From positions 1-37,642 of IMG/VR virus record IMGVR_UViG_3300026543_000013: a stretch of DNA of 37,642 bases; one strand, given 5' to 3'. A program made the translations under genes and the position numbers. Of this stretch, positions 1,715 to 31,058 are shown piece after piece. The notes beneath the pieces are model-generated. The model was not told the DNA's origin. It saw only the letters and a list, made by a program, of their open reading frames with translations, and searched no databases. Each line of letters starts with the position of its first letter. The stretch's first letter is position 1. The DNA is from a virus (Duplodnaviria > Caudoviricetes).

Positions 1715-1963
1715 ATGAAAGATGATGAAACGTTTACTTTTTCACACTTTACCGATAACGGCATTGTTCTCGGATTGGAAGACCGTCCATATGAAGGAAT
1801 GAAGCCATCGTGCCTGATTTTTTCAACCCTGAACAATAATGGCGAGACTGAAATCGTCACTATGGACTTAGAAGGAGTTGAGGTTAGTCGCAGGGCTGTG
1901 ATTAAACGCGGCGATGTTATTGAAAAATCTGGCAATGTTACTCATGTTCGATTCAAGGATTAA
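1715..1963 (+). CDS. hypothetical protein (start revised to MKDDETF)
   Basis: GAGGG RBS before ATG 1715. Confidence 0.65.
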   Translation: MKDDETFTFSHFTDNGIVLGLEDRPYEGMKPSCLIFSTLNNNGETEIVTMDLEGVEVSRRAVIKRGDVIEKSGNVTHVRFKD

Positions 1964-1997
1964 ACGTCTGTAGGGTCACCACCAGTGCCGGTTTATA

Positions 1998-2010
1998 AAT
2001 CAATGACTTA
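1998..2010 (+). promoter_or_regulatory. IHF-binding consensus
   Basis: AATCAAtgacTTA matches WATCAANNNNTTR. Confidence 0.5.
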
Positions 2011-2082
2011 AGAAATAATAGGCATATACGGTCATCACTTAAAACCCTTCCCATCCATCCCGACCATTACCGTAGCCAGTCT

Positions 2083-2289
2083 TCATAAGCCTTTAGCCTC
2101 TTCAATAAGAGTTAAATAAGGGATGGATAATGGAATGGTTGTTCCAGAAGTCGTTATCTTTGGCGGGTTAAGACAGCCATGCTCGCCACAAGTCCACACG
2201 AACTCACCGCAGGACATATTCATATAATGGCCTTCGTCGCCACATGCACAAACAGCGCTCCTGTGTGAAAAAACTTGCATCATAATCAT
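2083..2289 (-). CDS. Cys/His-rich hypothetical protein, lone minus-strand gene in the + arm
   Basis: CAC...CGEHGC motif; upstream structured leader. Confidence 0.5.
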   Translation of the reverse strand: MIMMQVFSHRSAVCACGDEGHYMNMSCGEFVWTCGEHGCLNPPKITTSGTTIPLSIPYLTLIEEAKGL

Positions 2290-2295
2290 CTCAAT

Positions 2296-2318
2296 TAAAT
2301 AAGGGGTTGCTAGCCCCT
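2296..2318 (-). terminator. possible intrinsic terminator/attenuator hairpin
   Basis: Minus strand reads AGGGGCT-AGC-AACCCCT followed by TATTT. Confidence 0.4.
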
Positions 2319-2541
2319 GGTTTCAGGTTTGATAAAGGCTATACCGCCCGATGTGCTTACTTTAATAGAGGGACACACATCGCAACTAAAGGTGGCCTAT
2401 TGTTGTTCCTGTGATTATTTTAACACAAACACCCCCAACCTTTTGATGTATATGTACTTATTCTGGGCGAAAACTTTCCGCCCAATATTACCTCATTATA
2501 TAACCCCTTAATAATTTATTATGTCAGGGGTTAATATTTAA

Positions 2542-2570
2542 TAGACAAGCGGGCGGTATAAGACTAGTAT
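2542..2570 (+). promoter_or_regulatory. sigma70-type promoter
   Basis: TAGACA-17 nt-TAGTAT, directly upstream of a GC-rich hairpin. Confidence 0.6.
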
Positions 2571-2575
2571 TGGTG

Positions 2576-3155
2576 GTGCTGGGTGCAAGACAGTTTTGTT
2601 CCCAAGAAGAAGGTTTTCCCTTAATTCACCTTCCCCGGCACACGATTTAAAAAGAAATAAGGGCGTGTTTAAAAGCAATTGAGGTGTAGAAGTACATTTC
2701 CATATTATACCCCAAAACCGTTTTAAACAGAGTTGTTATTGATGCGAGTAAAGGTTTTTGAATCTGGCGGTTAATCATATCGTTATTAAAAGCTCCGAGG
2801 CCTTCGGGTAAAGAGTTAATTAAGTTTCAAATTCTGCTGTAATTAGTGGTTATCACGGCAGTGATACGGTAGGCCACACGGGTTCGAGTCCCGATAGCAG
2901 CACTCTCTTCAATAACATCTCCCAGTCCATTAGACGCAGTAACAATTGACACTGGCGAAAACGCAACTGTTATCCAGGTTAAATATTTAACACCTATATT
3001 ATTAATAACGTTAGAGCGCGGATAAAGCAGTGATTAGGCAGGGGCTGGGTTGATCTCCCGACAAGGCTGTAAATAGGATGCTGCATACCGTTAATGATAT
3101 TTGTAAACTCACAGAGTATTGGCATAGGGCTTGTAGCATCCCTGCCAAACGCTCT
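2576..3155 (+). ncRNA. putative large structured non-coding RNA (or RNA cluster)
   Basis: No credible + ORF; successive helices 2576-2583/2634-2641, 2666-2674/2721-2729, 2734-2742/2909-2917, 3013-3018/3150-3155 and GGATGCTGCA/TGTAGCATCC. Confidence 0.5.
2833..2902 (+). ncRNA. tRNA-like element (acceptor stem + T-arm, no valid anticodon arm)
   Basis: CGGG-TTCGAGT-CCCG T-arm; CTGCTG/TAGCAG acceptor-like helix; AGTGGTTA D-loop-like motif; no CCA. Confidence 0.55.
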
Positions 3156-3166
3156 ATAGGATAACT

Positions 3167-3343
3167 ATGATTAAATGGAAACAAACCAATAGATTCGAGG
3201 CTGTATCCAACGAGGGCCACAAGCTATTAAAGACCCTCCCTCACAGCCCAGAACCTATTTACAACGTATTTGACAAGGATGATAAGTATTTAGGCAGCAC
3301 CAGGGATAGGGCAGCAGTAAACAAATTAATTATTGGAGAATAG
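3167..3343 (+). CDS. hypothetical protein (58 aa, MIKWKQTNRF...; not in ORF track)
   Basis: AGGA RBS; stop 3 nt before the next start. Confidence 0.65.
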   Translation: MIKWKQTNRFEAVSNEGHKLLKTLPHSPEPIYNVFDKDDKYLGSTRDRAAVNKLIIGE

Positions 3344-3346
3344 ACA

Positions 3347-3643
3347 ATGACAAAAGCAACTAAAAAACCTGTAACTATTGAATTTGTGCGGTGGACTGGC
3401 GAAAATCACAGGGAGGTTTTTAACTTTCTGTTTGATGGTGATCTGCCAGAGGAGAATATGATTAAAACCGAGGGTAAGAACTTTTATATTTCTCACGGCA
3501 AGGTTCACGGGGGTCTGATGATAAAGACCTTAGAGGGTGAGCATAAAGCCAGTATTGGCGACGTGATTATAAGGGGCGTCGCTGGCGAGTTCTATCCCTG
3601 CAAGCCTGATATTTTTGAACAAACATACGATGTCGTAGATTAG
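3347..3643 (+). CDS. conserved phage protein (PGDYG-like family)
   Basis: KKPVTIE...IKTLEG...IGDVIIRGVAGEFYPCKPDIFEQTY. Confidence 0.8.
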   Translation: MTKATKKPVTIEFVRWTGENHREVFNFLFDGDLPEENMIKTEGKNFYISHGKVHGGLMIKTLEGEHKASIGDVIIRGVAGEFYPCKPDIFEQTYDVVD

Positions 3644-3679: not shown

Positions 3680-4312
3680 ATGAGTAGACCTTTACATATT
3701 ACCTTTACAGGAATTGATGACAGGACTGATTTAACGCGAGCAGATGAGCTTTCATCACAATACCGTATCGAATGGGGCGTTCTATTTTCGGCAGGTAATC
3801 GTGATGCCAGATACCCCTGCGCTCAAGCTGTTAATGAAATCCTTGAAATATCAGGATTAAAGGCGGCTCACCTTTGCGGCGCTCTGGCCAGAAGCGCACA
3901 AACAGGAGTTATATCTGATGCCGTACATACCTCAAGATTTGATCGAGTCCAAATAAATGGCCATAACGTTATCGAAGAAAACATTCCAGCCATTGAGAAA
4001 AAATATGGAGTTCATGTTATTCGGCAGACAAGAAAGAATGAGTTCATGGATAACCCTCGCATTATGGAGCTATACGACTGTTCTGGTGGTCGTGGTGTTC
4101 TGCCCGGTCAGATACCAAGGCACCCCGGAAATGATTTATTTGTTGGGTATGCGGGGGGTATGGGGCCGGATACAGTAAAACAATATCTTTCAAAAATTCA
4201 AGGCGATGGTGATTTCTGGATTGATATGGAGGGCAATGTCCGCACAAAGGGTTGGTTTGACTTGGATAAGGTTGAGCGTGTTTGTGAAATTGTATTCGGC
4301 CCAGAGTTTTAA
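3680..4312 (+). CDS. TIM-barrel protein, phosphoribosylanthranilate isomerase (TrpF)-like phage family
   Basis: RVQIN, LYDCSGGRG, VGYAGGMGPDTV, WIDMEGNVR and FDLDKV parallel TrpF motifs (VQLH, LLD..GGTG, LAGGL.P.NV, DVSSGVE, KD..K). Confidence 0.7.
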   Translation: MSRPLHITFTGIDDRTDLTRADELSSQYRIEWGVLFSAGNRDARYPCAQAVNEILEISGLKAAHLCGALARSAQTGVISDAVHTSRFDRVQINGHNVIEENIPAIEKKYGVHVIRQTRKNEFMDNPRIMELYDCSGGRGVLPGQIPRHPGNDLFVGYAGGMGPDTVKQYLSKIQGDGDFWIDMEGNVRTKGWFDLDKVERVCEIVFGPEF

Positions 4313-5912: not shown

Positions 5913-8900
5913 ATGGCCTTAAAATTCCTTATACTCAGTGACAGCCAACTAACAAGCACTGGCGGTCATCTTGAGGCCACCTTTAACACTGACCCCTCAT
6001 GGCTAACGACCACCCCCAGTACTACAGACGTCACTGTAACCAATAACCCCACAGCAGGATTTGTAACCGGCAACGGTGCTAATCCCAGTGATGTCTCTCA
6101 TTTGTGGGGTATTGACGGTGCTGTCGTACAGTTATTAAGGCATCTTGATTCAATCGGTATAACTTCAGAAGATAATGTTAACTATGGTGAGGGAGGTAGT
6201 GGCTGGAGTTCTGCCAGGATAAGAGGCCAGGCAATACGTGATACTCTGATCAATATCCACTATTTTGATTACGTTATTATCGGAACCGGTACCAATCCTG
6301 CTGACACCAAACAAGACGATTCACCTAATTCAGCCGATCCTTATCCAACAACCCTCATCACTGAGCTAATAGATTTAGCCTTTGAGTTCAATCCCAAGGG
6401 CGTTTTCCTCTGGACTACTCCCCCCAAAAACAACAACCCAACTTATGATCCCTTACGCAATGGCAATGACACCAGTTGGCGGGATTATGTTGAAGGTGTT
6501 GGGGCCTTTGAAGAAAGTTTCCAAGACACGTACAAGCGGTTAACCGTTTTTGATGCCTATAACGTAATGGGAGGCAGAACATTAAACCCCTCTTTATGGG
6601 CTGATACTACCCATATGAACAACGCAGGGCACACGTTAATTGCTGACAATTCACTAATCCCTGACTTTCTCGCTTATCAAGATAAATATGCTGCCACCGT
6701 CGGAGCGAATGGGGTATACGGGTTCAAGCCTACCGTCCTGAGAGATGTTGTTGTTATGGGCGTGCTTGAGAATGCGATTAACTTTCAAGTCGGACAGGTA
6801 GTAACCGCTAATTCTATCCATCAATCCCTCATCGCTGATGGTAAGACCCGAATCAATGCGATTAACGCGAGCGTACAGGTCATCAATGGAGCGACCGGAG
6901 ATTTTAAGTTATACTTATACAAGCAGACAGGACACGGCTCAGAGCCCGACACAGAGCCAACAACCCAGTTAATAGCGTCCACAACCTTTACAGTGACGCA
7001 AGACTTGACGAATTTTTCACATATTCGTTATGCTATTCCAGGTGGTTATTTACCGGCAGCGGGTGAGGTGGTTGTAGCAGCGGTAGAGAATGCATCAGGA
7101 TCAATACAGGTAATACAGATAACAGGCGTTCCCGATGCGGGTAATTGGAGAAACACAGGCGGGGCTGATGCTAGCTGGGGAACAACAGGTGTATCAGATT
7201 TCACTAGCCGCTTTGAATACGGCACTTGGTTTGAAAAAGAGGAAGCAGGTATGGCAACCGATGATATAAAAACGGCCAAATTTCAGGTCGCTATGAATGG
7301 ATCACTAGGCGACGGATTAAACCAGAGCTACACAAAGGCCGGTATATCATGGACACCTAAAGCCGCTTACATAATCGTTTCACAAGGTTCAGTCGATGCT
7401 ACTGCTGCCGCAGGAATGTCTATGTGCGGTGGTATTTCGGACGGTACAACCCAGGCCGTGATGGGTACGAGCAGCGAGGATGATGTAGCCTCGACTAATG
7501 TCTTCCGCTACAGCGCATCAGATAGAGTTATTGCCTTACTAGACCCCACAGACAATACGCACGCAACCCGCTCAAGTGAGTGGGAGTTTAACGCTTTTGT
7601 ACCGGGAGGAGTCAGTCTTACCCAGAGGGCCACGGGTGGTATCAATGCGATAGCCACTATTATCCTATTCGGTGGTGCTGATTTAGAGGTCGAGGCATTA
7701 ATATTAGATTTAGGCAATGTTCAGACCGCTATTACTCATACAACATCTTTTGAACCCACCTTCATACTGCCCATTTCAAACGGTAGTAATGTGGATAATT
7801 CGGGAGCTGTGGATAACTTGGGGATAGGTTTAGGCGCTGTGACCAATGATGGTGCAGGTACTATCGTTCAAATGACGCTAGGAAGCTCAGGATCAAACGG
7901 TAGCGGTGCGGGTAGTGCTGCGCAACGTGTCCAAACTGATAACGCATCCATGCAAGTTAACTCGAATAACGGTAACGCCACCTCATTAACCGCTTTTTCT
8001 AACTTCACCTCCGTCAGTTTCGATACCACTTCAAATTTTAATATGGGCAATGATGATTTACTTGTCTTAGCTATGCGAACCGGTGACGCTCAAACATGGG
8101 CAGGACAGATCAACACCCCAACAGCAGGAGAAATAACAGCTGATGGCGGTTGGTTAATCACTGACCCAGGCTTTAAGCCTCAATTATTTGGTTTAAATAC
8201 CTCAATGGCTACCGCAACAAACACACCGGATATATCGGCCACAGCGGGAACTTTTGGGTTTTCAGTGTTTGAGGATGGAGAATCGGTATCCGTCCAGATT
8301 AGGACAGAAGTGGGTGCCACTCAAATAGTTAGCGAATCCCTCTCCACAGACGATGCTTTCTTTTTAACCGATGATGACGGTGTGACGACTTTTAACGCCA
8401 CTAACCCACAAATGCAGCCAACGGGCGCTTTAATCGCTACTGCCGATATAACATTAATGGACGCCACCCCCCGAAGATTGACAGGGTGGGCTATTGAATC
8501 AATTGTATCTCTTGGCCCTCCTACACTCACAGCAGAATACAATGATCAATTTAACGATGTAGGGGACACCCCCAGCGTTGATATAAGTACGAATATTGCC
8601 GGCGGCACTTCATTCAGCGCAGAAGGACTGCCCCCTTCTCTATCGATTAATGCGAGCACAGGGGTTATTACGGGCACTCTAGGCCAGGATGGCAACTTCC
8701 CGGTGACTATCAACGCTCAGAACAGTATCGGTGTTTTGCTCCCTCCCGCCCAATTCAGATGGTATGTCGGAGCCCAGGCAGGCATGTTTGAAAAGCTTGA
8801 ACAAGTAGGATCGAATGGATTCATGTACGCCTATAACGAGCAAGGCAGAACAATAGCCCAGATGAACGCGGCATTCTTCTCTAATCGCTATGTTGTGAGC

Positions 8901-9020
8901 GTATTAAAAACCGACGATTATCTACAAGTTACTGGATCAGATGGCACTAAGATTTATCAAGTAACCGTAACCCCTGAAACAAGAACGGTAGCCCTTACGC
9001 TATCATTGACTTTCGCATGA
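5913..9020 (+). CDS. large virion-associated protein: SGNH/GDSL hydrolase + beta-rich domains + Ig-like (He_PIG) domain
   Basis: SDS (block I), GEGGS (II), GTN (III), DTTH (V); C-terminal FSAEGLPPSLSINASTGVITGT. Confidence 0.8.
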   Translation: MALKFLILSDSQLTSTGGHLEATFNTDPSWLTTTPSTTDVTVTNNPTAGFVTGNGANPSDVSHLWGIDGAVVQLLRHLDSIGITSEDNVNYGEGGSGWSSARIRGQAIRDTLINIHYFDYVIIGTGTNPADTKQDDSPNSADPYPTTLITELIDLAFEFNPKGVFLWTTPPKNNNPTYDPLRNGNDTSWRDYVEGVGAFEESFQDTYKRLTVFDAYNVMGGRTLNPSLWADTTHMNNAGHTLIADNSLIPDFLAYQDKYAATVGANGVYGFKPTVLRDVVVMGVLENAINFQVGQVVTANSIHQSLIADGKTRINAINASVQVINGATGDFKLYLYKQTGHGSEPDTEPTTQLIASTTFTVTQDLTNFSHIRYAIPGGYLPAAGEVVVAAVENASGSIQVIQITGVPDAGNWRNTGGADASWGTTGVSDFTSRFEYGTWFEKEEAGMATDDIKTAKFQVAMNGSLGDGLNQSYTKAGISWTPKAAYIIVSQGSVDATAAAGMSMCGGISDGTTQAVMGTSSEDDVASTNVFRYSASDRVIALLDPTDNTHATRSSEWEFNAFVPGGVSLTQRATGGINAIATIILFGGADLEVEALILDLGNVQTAITHTTSFEPTFILPISNGSNVDNSGAVDNLGIGLGAVTNDGAGTIVQMTLGSSGSNGSGAGSAAQRVQTDNASMQVNSNNGNATSLTAFSNFTSVSFDTTSNFNMGNDDLLVLAMRTGDAQTWAGQINTPTAGEITADGGWLITDPGFKPQLFGLNTSMATATNTPDISATAGTFGFSVFEDGESVSVQIRTEVGATQIVSESLSTDDAFFLTDDDGVTTFNATNPQMQPTGALIATADITLMDATPRRLTGWAIESIVSLGPPTLTAEYNDQFNDVGDTPSVDISTNIAGGTSFSAEGLPPSLSINASTGVITGTLGQDGNFPVTINAQNSIGVLLPPAQFRWYVGAQAGMFEKLEQVGSNGFMYAYNEQGRTIAQMNAAFFSNRYVVSVLKTDDYLQVTGSDGTKIYQVTVTPETRTVALTLSLTFA

Positions 9021-30560: not shown

Positions 30561-31058
30561 TTAAAAGTTAGCTTTTATCGCAAAACTCATCATCGTAGAG
30601 CCGTCAATGTCCATAAGCTCGCCTGATACCGTCACAGCTTCACGTACGTCATAAGTTAGCCCTGCACCGTAGTTAGTCGCTGAATCGGTAGCACTGGCTG
30701 TCTCGCCATTCTTGGACGCCTTAGCCTTAGCTTTAGTCTGCCCGATAAATGCATAGGGATTTAAACCACCGGCTCCACTGACAGGATAGGTAATCACAAT
30801 ATCACCGCCCCACATATCCTTAAGCTCTACGCGCGCACCGTTTACCGTTTCATCTTCAGCCAGGATCATGTAGCGACCACGGACAGAAAAGAGCCCGCCC
30901 AGTACATCGCCGAAGTGATAGCCGCCGACCAAGTTAACGCCGTTGAAATCGCCGACATCAGTATCCAGGTTAAACATCGATGTGCCGATAAATGCATCAC
31001 CTCTTGCTACACCAATACCTGCAAATGTTAAAATCAATATTGCTAATATACTCTTCAT
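30561..31058 (-). CDS. outer-membrane 8-strand beta-barrel protein (Ail/Lom/OmpA-TM-like)
   Basis: Signal peptide; LNPYAFIG, NYGAGLTY; terminal Phe (KANF). Confidence 0.85.
   Translation of the reverse strand: MKSILAILILTFAGIGVARGDAFIGTSMFNLDTDVGDFNGVNLVGGYHFGDVLGGLFSVRGRYMILAEDETVNGARVELKDMWGGDIVITYPVSGAGGLNPYAFIGQTKAKAKASKNGETASATDSATNYGAGLTYDVREAVTVSGELMDIDGSTMMSFAIKANF

What the first reader, a model, noticed from the sequence alone, without database searches (positions are those of the whole stretch)
2542..3160. ~600-nt promoter-driven, densely structured non-coding tract: candidate novel large phage RNA
Seen: this is the longest ORF-free stretch in an otherwise tightly packed genome. 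It begins just after TAGACA-17-TAGTAT and is tiled by helices. These are GTGCTGGG/CCCGGCAC (2576/2641) with inner GAAGGT/ACCTTC; TGTTTAAAA/TTTTAAACA (2666/2729); a long-range GAGtTGTTATTGA/TCAATAACAtCTC helix (2730-2742/2909-2921) enclosing a C-UUCG-G hairpin and a tRNA-like domain; a possible pseudoknot at 2922-2972; and a rod at 3013-3155. Known: phages encode large ornate ncRNAs (GOLLD and ROOL classes) that often sit near tRNAs. Inference: this is one processed RNA or an RNA cluster of a class I do not recognise. Since the genome lacks replication genes, an RNA-primed (ColE1 RNAII-like) origin is an alternative role.
Basis: partly seen in the sequence, partly recalled or inferred. Interest (0 to 1): 0.8.

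Follow-up and report, generated by a model that had tools for sequence, protein, structure and literature searches.

The report
Modular phage RNA with swappable cargo
The 600 gene-free bases of this phage hold a row of predicted folded RNA modules that match no catalogued RNA family yet keep their base pairing in related phages; the central stem carries a tRNA-like piece here and two true tRNAs in a relative, and is likely cut by the host enzyme RNase III, so it likely serves as a swappable slot for small RNAs.

Summary
The helices are real, and relatives keep them. The tract (about 2576-3155, + strand) lies in a complete 37.6-kb podovirus. It is a mosaic, not one fixed giant RNA. Eight related contigs reshuffle these parts. 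One puts true tRNA-Phe and tRNA-Cys in the same stalk. Module A shows two-sided changes in 6 of 19 pairs (4 sequences). D recurs, with swapped base pairs, in gene-free units of cultured Vibrio phages that hold 0-3 tRNAs. Stalk bases fit a relaxed RNase III box pattern (22 of 74 distinct long stems, 4.4 expected). In the two-tRNA relative the predicted cuts fall at the first base of tRNA-Phe and inside the CCA of tRNA-Cys. Rfam gave no hit, GOLLD and ROOL included. Best reading: a stable-RNA island whose stalk is likely cut by host RNase III to free interchangeable tRNA or tRNA-like cargo. Transcription, cutting and function are untested. An origin-primer role is unlikely.

The parts
2542..2570 (+). 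sigma-70-type promoter-like site, TAGACA-17-TAGTAT; predicted start about 2576
   Evidence: A best -35/-10 pair ends 3-5 nt before helix P1 in 5 of 5 module-A carriers, with unrelated spacers (7-10 of 12 matches). Contig loose ends in runs X3 and X4 show the same geometry. Not shown to be active.
2576..2729 (+). Module A: P1 2576-2583/2634-2641, P2 2609-2614/2628-2633, pseudoknot 2618-2623/2658-2663, P3 2666-2674/2721-2729, P4 2681-2688/2706-2713
   Evidence: Shared with L046 (second unit), L059 and L078; by eye a distant form in L072. P1, P2 and pseudoknot: 97% of cells paired, 6 of 19 pairs with two-sided changes, 0 of 500 shuffles. P3 and P4.
2730..2749 (+). Stalk, 5' arm; RNase III-type box pattern at 2731-2740, predicted cut after 2742
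   Evidence: determinants from PMC1540722 passages, relaxed at two positions
2750..2901 (+). Variable head (cargo): hairpins incl. C-UUCG-G 2802-2807, then a tRNA-like element with acceptor-like stem 2835-2839/2898-2902 and T-arm 2879-2893; no paired D-stem, no CCA
   Evidence: The same slot holds tRNA-Phe(GAA) plus tRNA-Cys(GCA) in L028/L046 (Rfam 43.8 and 52.5 bits) and other folds in L042, L059, L068-L072 and L078.
2902..2921 (+). Stalk, 3' arm; predicted cut after 2910 (would free a 168-nt head, 2743-2910)
2922..2973 (+). Module C: pseudoknot, P1 2922-2926/2951-2955, crossing helix 2939-2948/2964-2973, small hairpin 2956-2963
   Evidence: In 10 sequences, always just 3' of a stalk: 91% of cells paired, 3 of 16 pairs with two-sided changes (10 of 500 shuffles as high). 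Nine of the 10 share the core used as search pattern, so variation is under-sampled.
2996..3155 (+). Domain D: pseudoknot 2996-3006/3090-3100, D1 3013-3018/3150-3155, conserved GATAAA at 3021, D2 3037-3042/3141-3146, D3 3077-3085/3132-3140
   Evidence: Close copies in L046 and L042. The same architecture with different sequence is in eight units of cultured Vibrio phages (descriptor; model built from Vibrio sequences only).

Best explanation
The tract is a row of separately folding, reshuffled modules behind one promoter-like site, likely transcribed as a ~580-nt stable-RNA precursor whose central stalk is likely cut by host RNase III to free a swappable tRNA or tRNA-like cargo. Shown: the helices and their conservation; that modules A, C, D and the heads reassort between phages; that the slot holds true tRNAs in a relative and a T-arm element here; and that stalk bases fit an RNase III box pattern. 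Inferred steps: (1) host sigma-70 polymerase starts near 2576; (2) RNase III cuts after 2742 and 2910, freeing a 168-nt head and leaving A and C+D as folded, nuclease-resistant RNAs; (3) true-tRNA cargo tops up host tRNA pools, and T-arm heads like this one act as tRNA mimics or decoys, for instance for tRNA-directed host defences; (4) the conserved arms and module borders serve as recombination anchors through which cargo is exchanged. Step 3 is the weakest (about 0.3 on its own). D persists with an empty slot, so it likely has a job of its own.
For: Mosaicism: G002 shares the window's virion genes (55-96% aa) yet has another 5' module with the same C and D. G001 shows no match to the virion genes yet has the same A, C and D. 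Of 8 related contigs, D is in 2 (L046, L042). Cargo: two Rfam tRNAs inside the same stalk in L028/L046. The head of L046's first unit recurs at 94% over 48 nt (E 1e-9) on a different stalk in the tRNA island of Xanthomonas phage Kintu. Vibrio phage units hold 3, 2, 2 or 0 tRNAs between a 5' hairpin and a D-type domain. RNase III pattern: 25 of 81 long stems (22 of 74 distinct arms) match, all within 4 nt of the stem base; column-shuffled mean 4.4, maximum 13, 0 of 2000 as high. In L046 the predicted cuts fall just before G1 of tRNA-Phe and between CC and A of tRNA-Cys. No conserved A-C or C-D pairing. Direct repeats sit at module borders in L028.
Against: No transcript or cleavage data. The RNase III pattern was relaxed after I saw the stalks (C-G allowed at distal box 2, any pair at proximal box 1), and the window's stalk departs from the E. 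coli optimum at both and has a U-U mismatch between the boxes. The matching stems fall into about six related sequence families, so they are not 22 independent cases. Several real stalks do not match (both in L072, one each in L046 and L042, Kintu's head stalk, one Xanthomonadales stalk type, the NF and 1.122.A 5' hairpins). In L046 the stalk ends 1-2 bp beyond the predicted cuts, so the coincidence with tRNA ends is partly geometric, and n = 1. Five of module A's 6 two-sided changes come from one sequence. The link of D to Vibrio is not significant by nhmmer, and the window's own model score (13.1 bits, E 0.25) is below one background hit of 14.4 bits.
Confidence: 0.5

Rival explanations
1. 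One unprocessed GOLLD/ROOL-like ornate RNA: 5' and 3' domains fold, perhaps oligomerise into a cage, and carry tRNA-like cargo in a flexible linker.
For: Size about 580 nt and three pseudoknots, as in ROOL (581 nt, three pseudoknots; PMC5737381). GOLLD has separate 5' and 3' domains, a variable 5' part and tRNAs sometimes in the linker (PMC12286853). Vibrio units keep 5' domain plus D when the slot is empty. In the A' type the predicted 5' end pairs with a linker behind the cargo.
Against: The 5' module, C and the 3' module each come and go independently. No conserved cross-module helix in the A type. RNase III pattern at stalk bases. No GOLLD or ROOL match.
Confidence: 0.25
2. A cis-acting leader: the folded modules (A or D) modify RNA polymerase or shield the message, like HK022 put (recalled), so that transcription reads through into the downstream operon.
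For: It sits behind a promoter-like site, ahead of 26 kb of same-strand genes that include the virion genes. A'-type 5' hairpins end in a U-tract that must be passed to reach the tRNAs, and D ends shortly before a start codon in the window and the Vibrio units.
Against: True tRNAs in the slot point to trans-acting products. Downstream genes differ from phage to phage (methylase, phosphatase, unknowns). Module A has no terminator-like site.
Confidence: 0.12
3. C or D is a self-cleaving or other catalytic RNA that trims the cargo itself, as theta ribozymes do behind phage tRNAs (recalled).
For: C lies directly 3' of a stalk in 10 of 10 sequences, with a near-invariant core (partly a search bias). 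D has a pseudoknot and a conserved unpaired GAYAAA across unrelated stem sequences.
Against: No Rfam ribozyme hit at E up to 10. C has only 2 nt where an HDV-like fold needs P3/L3 (sequence; fold recalled). C is absent from the Vibrio and Kintu loci searched.
Confidence: 0.08
4. RNA-primed replication origin (ColE1 RNA II-like).
For: No replication initiator was recognised in the window. It is a structured tract behind a promoter-like site.
Against: tRNA cargo in relatives. Two units plus an annotated replication protein in Vibrio phage NF. No GC-skew turn at the tract. No iteron-like repeats. Of 16 records of terminase relatives searched whole, none holds the tract (one 19-nt chance-level hit).
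Confidence: 0.04

Closest known systems
GOLLD RNA (Rfam RF02032)
   Same: Large phage-borne RNA of unknown function; variable 5' part, conserved 3' domain, tRNAs sometimes inside a variable linker (PMC12286853 passages).
   Different: No match to the model. About 580 nt rather than often over 800. Cargo sits in a 20-bp stalk with an RNase III-type base. 3' parts are also exchanged.
ROOL RNA (Rfam RF03087)
   Same: Similar length, three pseudoknots, phage and tRNA context (PMC5737381 passages).
   Different: No match. [quoted passage not shown]
RNase III processing stalks (T7 R1.1-derived substrate in PMC1540722; rRNA operon stalks, recalled)
   Same: Long helix with distal-box and proximal-box spacing that encloses an RNA to be released.
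   Different: The enclosed RNA is interchangeable between phages; two box positions depart from the E. coli optimum; cleavage untested.
Phage tRNA islands (annotated tRNAs of Vibrio phages Seahorse, H2, 1.116.O; Xanthomonas phage Kintu)
   Same: Same slot position; homologous flanking modules or head in cultured phages.
   Different: The flanking folded modules are unannotated in those records, and the window has no true tRNA.
ICP1 ~800-nt non-coding transcript (PMC7567579)
   Same: Most abundant transcript of a Vibrio phage, from an ORF-free gap without tRNAs: a precedent for expression of such tracts.
   Different: No sequence, model or descriptor match to any module: an analogue at most.

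Membership tests
GOLLD RNA | Match to the conserved 3' domain model RF02032 | tested here: not met
   0 of 5 records at E up to 10; no Rfam hit in window, relatives or Vibrio loci. No known GOLLD carrier was run as a positive control.
GOLLD RNA | Variable linker that may hold tRNAs between 5' and 3' domains | tested here: met
GOLLD RNA | Homo-oligomeric nanocage | not testable with these tools
   needs cryo-EM or mass photometry
ROOL RNA | Match to model RF03087 | tested here: inconclusive
   0 of 5 records, but the control genomes were silent too; cmscan of all Rfam also gave no ROOL hit.
ROOL RNA | Intertwined 5' and 3' regions | tested here: not met
   No A-C helix of 5 bp or more kept in 4 of 4; one invariant 8-bp A-D candidate in 2 sequences, uninformative; modules reassort.
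tRNA gene (window head) | Cloverleaf passing ARAGORN or Rfam RF00005 | tested here: not met
   only a relaxed call
tRNA gene (window head) | T-arm with canonical loop | tested here: met
   2879-2893, 4-bp stem
tmRNA | ARAGORN or Rfam tmRNA match with tag frame | tested here: not met
   Only the 15-nt T-arm scored, 11 bits against a cut-off of 47; ARAGORN 0.
RNase III substrate | 11-bp helix with distal box (UA, UG) and proximal box (GC, W, AU, W) | tested here: inconclusive
   Spacing and 4 of 6 box pairs met in the window; distal 2 is C-G and proximal 1 is A-U; pattern enriched at stem bases in the set.
RNase III substrate | Site-specific cleavage by the enzyme | not testable with these tools
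   needs an in vitro assay
HDV-like (theta) ribozyme, module C | Nested double pseudoknot with P3/L3 and P1.1 (recalled) | tested here: not met
   Only 2 nt between the crossing strand and P1'; no Rfam hit.
ColE1-type origin | Autonomous replication from an RNA primer | not testable with these tools
   indirect signs are negative

The most novel reading that the evidence does not exclude
These units are an exchange system for non-coding RNA. A conserved RNase III-opened socket lets phages of Vibrio, Xanthomonadales and uncultured hosts swap tRNAs and tRNA decoys, like gene cassettes, to counter tRNA-directed defences. It is flanked by at least three undescribed pseudoknotted RNA classes, of which D, kept even when the socket is empty, is a new catalytic or self-assembling RNA.
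Probability: 0.2. Interest if true: 0.87.

Novelty: new variant of a known kind. Interest (0 to 1): 0.7.

Why it matters
Large phage RNAs (GOLLD, ROOL, the ICP1 transcript) have no known function, and degenerate tRNAs in phages are usually ignored. Here both meet in one locus with a concrete prediction: cut sites to the nucleotide and a slot whose content varies from two tRNAs to a T-arm mimic to nothing. Domain D and the A'-type 5' module occur in cultured Vibrio phages (L3 on V. natriegens, 1.122.A on V. cyclitrophicus), so expression, processing and knock-out can be tested now. Modules A, C and D are candidate new RNA families.

Tried and rejected
Rfam on the window (gathering; E up to 10 on 1900-3400), relatives and cultured phages: only tRNAs. 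Direct blastn of the tract against 50,697 phage records: 3 short hits, the one inspected lying inside a gene. L042, L059 and L070 units: no match. D against plasmids: 2 marginal 39-nt hits, not followed. Terminase relatives: none of 26 loci and none of 16 whole records holds the tract. Patterns with no hit: viral; GTDB genomes. One search gave 40 loci, of which 36 were chance and were dropped. Searches found only known contigs. Host: two distant terminase hits in MAGs (47-48%) say nothing reliable. Expression: no RNA holder listed; a second read lay-over gave no answer. nhmmer between D and the Vibrio 3' domains: not significant. ICP1 RNA: unrelated. Antisense-guide idea (P1 C4 / P4 CI type): the head has no antisense match of 11 nt or more to the rest of the genome. 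Decayed gene: longest + strand ORF in the tract is 28 aa. Model R1 was built with module C pairs out of register (my error) and L078 was in its training set, so one search counts only as a sequence-profile search. The antisense control is not independent, because a paired stem reproduces the pattern on the other strand; one search replaced it. In one search the D1 and D2 partners come from the descriptor, so those counts are circular, and the script mis-picked one pseudoknot partner (L094). Fremin 2023 csRNA catalogue (PMC10690425): 3 of 6 held supplement files were searched with no hit; the alignment and position files could not be read, so a short module may be listed there.

Full report
Setting. 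The window is a complete 37,642-base virus record with direct terminal repeats. It carries a podovirus-type virion module on the + strand and lysis, RusA, HNH and HTH genes on the - strand. No replication initiator was recognised. The tract lies among small + strand genes, about 7 kb before the terminase. The host is unknown. Shared modules with Vibrio and Xanthomonas phages suggest a gammaproteobacterium (inference). Three of the four runs laid are labelled marine.

Observation. Folding alone is modest: z -1.98, 4 of 100 shuffles as good. The promoter-like site is not above chance alone. Rfam and ARAGORN found nothing, apart from a T-arm at 2879-2893.

Relatives. Contigs of four runs covered the tract and the phrog_419 gene but little of the flanks. 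Pattern scans gave eight related contigs: L028/L046 (two units), L042, L059, L068 (4 true loci of 40, L046 included), L069-L072 (4 of 4) and L078. They show a mosaic. The 5' part is either module A (window, L046 second unit, L059, L078; by eye a distant form in L072) or a different module A', a 28-33-bp hairpin plus U-tract (L046 first unit, L042, L068, L071). One to four long stalks follow, each with a different head. Module C follows the last stalk (only its first bases in L046's first unit). D is present in L046 and L042 only. G002 (L042) shares the window's virion genes but not module A; G001 (L046) shares A, C and D but not the virion genes. In L028/L046 the stalk homologous to 2730-2921 encloses tRNA-Phe and tRNA-Cys (43.8 and 52.5 bits), both ending in CCA. 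Folding z-scores of relatives run from -0.9 to -14.8 (12 shuffles each).

Covariation. Five of the six changes come from L046. Module C, 10 sequences: 91% paired, 3 of 16 pairs (10 of 500 shuffles); the set is biased by the search pattern. A -35/-10 pair ends 3-5 nt before P1 in 5 of 5 module-A carriers, with unrelated spacers.

Cultured phages. The head of L046's first unit matches Xanthomonas phage Kintu (94% of 48 nt, E 1e-9), on another stalk in a tRNA island. Stenotrophomonas phages show the same stalk-and-head design with other sequences. Module A' matches an unannotated 610-nt gap in Vibrio phage NF, which led to 35 and 25 Vibrio phage records. I inspected 11 further loci. They have a promoter-like site and a long 5' hairpin, mostly with a U-tract, then a slot with three tRNAs (Seahorse), two (H2, 1.116.O), a stalk with or without a T-arm (NF, 1.122.A) or nothing (L3), then a 3' domain. 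In 1.110.O a tRNA-Met follows the stalk and no D-type domain was found.

Domain D. By eye, most of these 3' domains share the window's layout: pseudoknot strand, D1, GAYAAA, D2, inner pseudoknot partner, D2', A-rich linker, D1'. nhmmer did not support this. A loose descriptor hit the window 4 times. One tightened to the Vibrio spacings hit it once, at 2996-3154. It also hit L046, L042 and eight Vibrio units, nothing else in 709 kb of loci, 1 place in 200 shuffled windows and 0 of 5000 shuffled tracts. I designed it after seeing the window and set the span range to admit it; it misses Seahorse, H2 and L3. Independently, a covariance model built from four Vibrio sequences ranked L042 (E 0.004), L046 (E 0.02) and the window (E 0.25) first to third in 70 kb. 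A background hit elsewhere reached 14.4 bits, above the window's 13.1. I take homology as likely, not proven.

Mechanism. Pertzev and Nicholson (PMC1540722, passages) give the E. coli RNase III determinants as a distal and a proximal box in an 11-bp helix. With two positions relaxed, 25 of 81 long stems (22 of 74 distinct arms) match, all within 4 nt of the stem base, against a column-shuffled mean of 4.4 (0 of 2000). The stems form about six families and several real stalks fail. In the window the predicted cuts are after 2742 and 2910. In L046 they fall before G1 of tRNA-Phe and one base short of the CCA end of tRNA-Cys. No pairing between A and C or C and D is conserved. In L028 the 3' end of D (window 3104-3167) recurs 2.2 kb downstream, and a 13-nt repeat beginning at the start of C flanks a 58-aa gene, which suggests module borders act as recombination anchors (inference). 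Hence the best reading: a stable-RNA island with an RNase III-opened cargo slot (0.5). Rivals are an intact GOLLD-like RNA (0.25), a cis-acting leader (0.12), a ribozyme (0.08) and an origin primer (0.04). What the T-arm head does is conjecture; tRNA mimicry is the most economical guess, since true tRNAs occupy the same slot.

What is known. GOLLD is the closest design and ROOL the closest in size (passages of PMC12286853, and PMC5737381); neither model matches (ROOL control silent). The abundant ICP1 RNA (passages of PMC7567579) is unrelated. Literature searches (listings and abstract starts only) showed no description of these modules or of such a slot. The library lacks most subscription papers, and the key Fremin 2023 files were unreadable (PMC10690425, passages and 3 of 6 held supplements). 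HK022 put, theta ribozymes, ColE1, C4/CI RNAs and rRNA stalks are cited from memory. Earlier notes of this scan describe similar RNase III-framed swappable stalks in other phages. I saw them after forming the idea (note). They are unchecked AI notes, not support, but they suggest the design is widespread, which lowers the uniqueness of this locus.

Verdict. Real, conserved and uncatalogued; a new variant of phage tRNA-island and large-RNA systems, with three candidate new RNA families and testable cut sites. Interest 0.7.

Noticed in passing
L028 3987-4046 and 1750-1820; window 3104-3167: The 3' end of domain D is duplicated 2.2 kb downstream in this relative, bracketing a gene block led by a 307-aa ORF; the window's D ends with the downstream version, as if the block had been lost or gained by recombination.
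   Followed up: partly
L028 999-1011 and 1201-1213: A 13-nt direct repeat starting with the first bases of module C flanks a 58-aa gene between the two RNA units.
   Followed up: partly
L072 (minus strand, between its 5' module and its stalks): An ORF that reads like an HNH endonuclease (judged by eye from the DNA, not scanned) interrupts the RNA unit.
   Followed up: no
L090 1851-2460 and L098 1003-1548 (Vibrio phage NF, MN812722): Two unannotated RNA units on opposite strands of one cultured phage, each with a D-type domain.
   Followed up: partly
L089 2200-3500 (Kintu), L107-L109: Xanthomonadales phage tRNA islands hold unannotated stalks with swappable heads, and extra tRNA-like Ser and Gly elements called only by relaxed ARAGORN in Kintu.
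   Followed up: partly
L042 head 2380-2470 (minus strand numbering) and L078 1576-1670: A second head family, 73% alike over 96 nt, with no T-arm and no Rfam match.
   Followed up: no
window 30561-31058 (-): Outer-membrane beta-barrel gene (PF13505, E 2e-11) beside the lysis genes; points to a Gram-negative host.
   Followed up: no
window 3680-4312 (+): 210-aa protein with a weak PRAI TIM-barrel match (PF00697, E 6e-5) just downstream of the RNA tract.
   Followed up: no
window 5913-9020 (+): 1035-aa protein with no PHROG match placed before the terminase; its N-terminus reads like an SGNH/GDSL hydrolase (by eye).
   Followed up: no
window 37266-104: Divergent junction where cumulative GC skew has its minimum; a better origin candidate than the tract.
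   Followed up: no
window 2417-2490: 74 nt upstream of the promoter are 89% identical in L042 although the promoters differ; possibly control of the small minus-strand gene 2083-2289.
   Followed up: no
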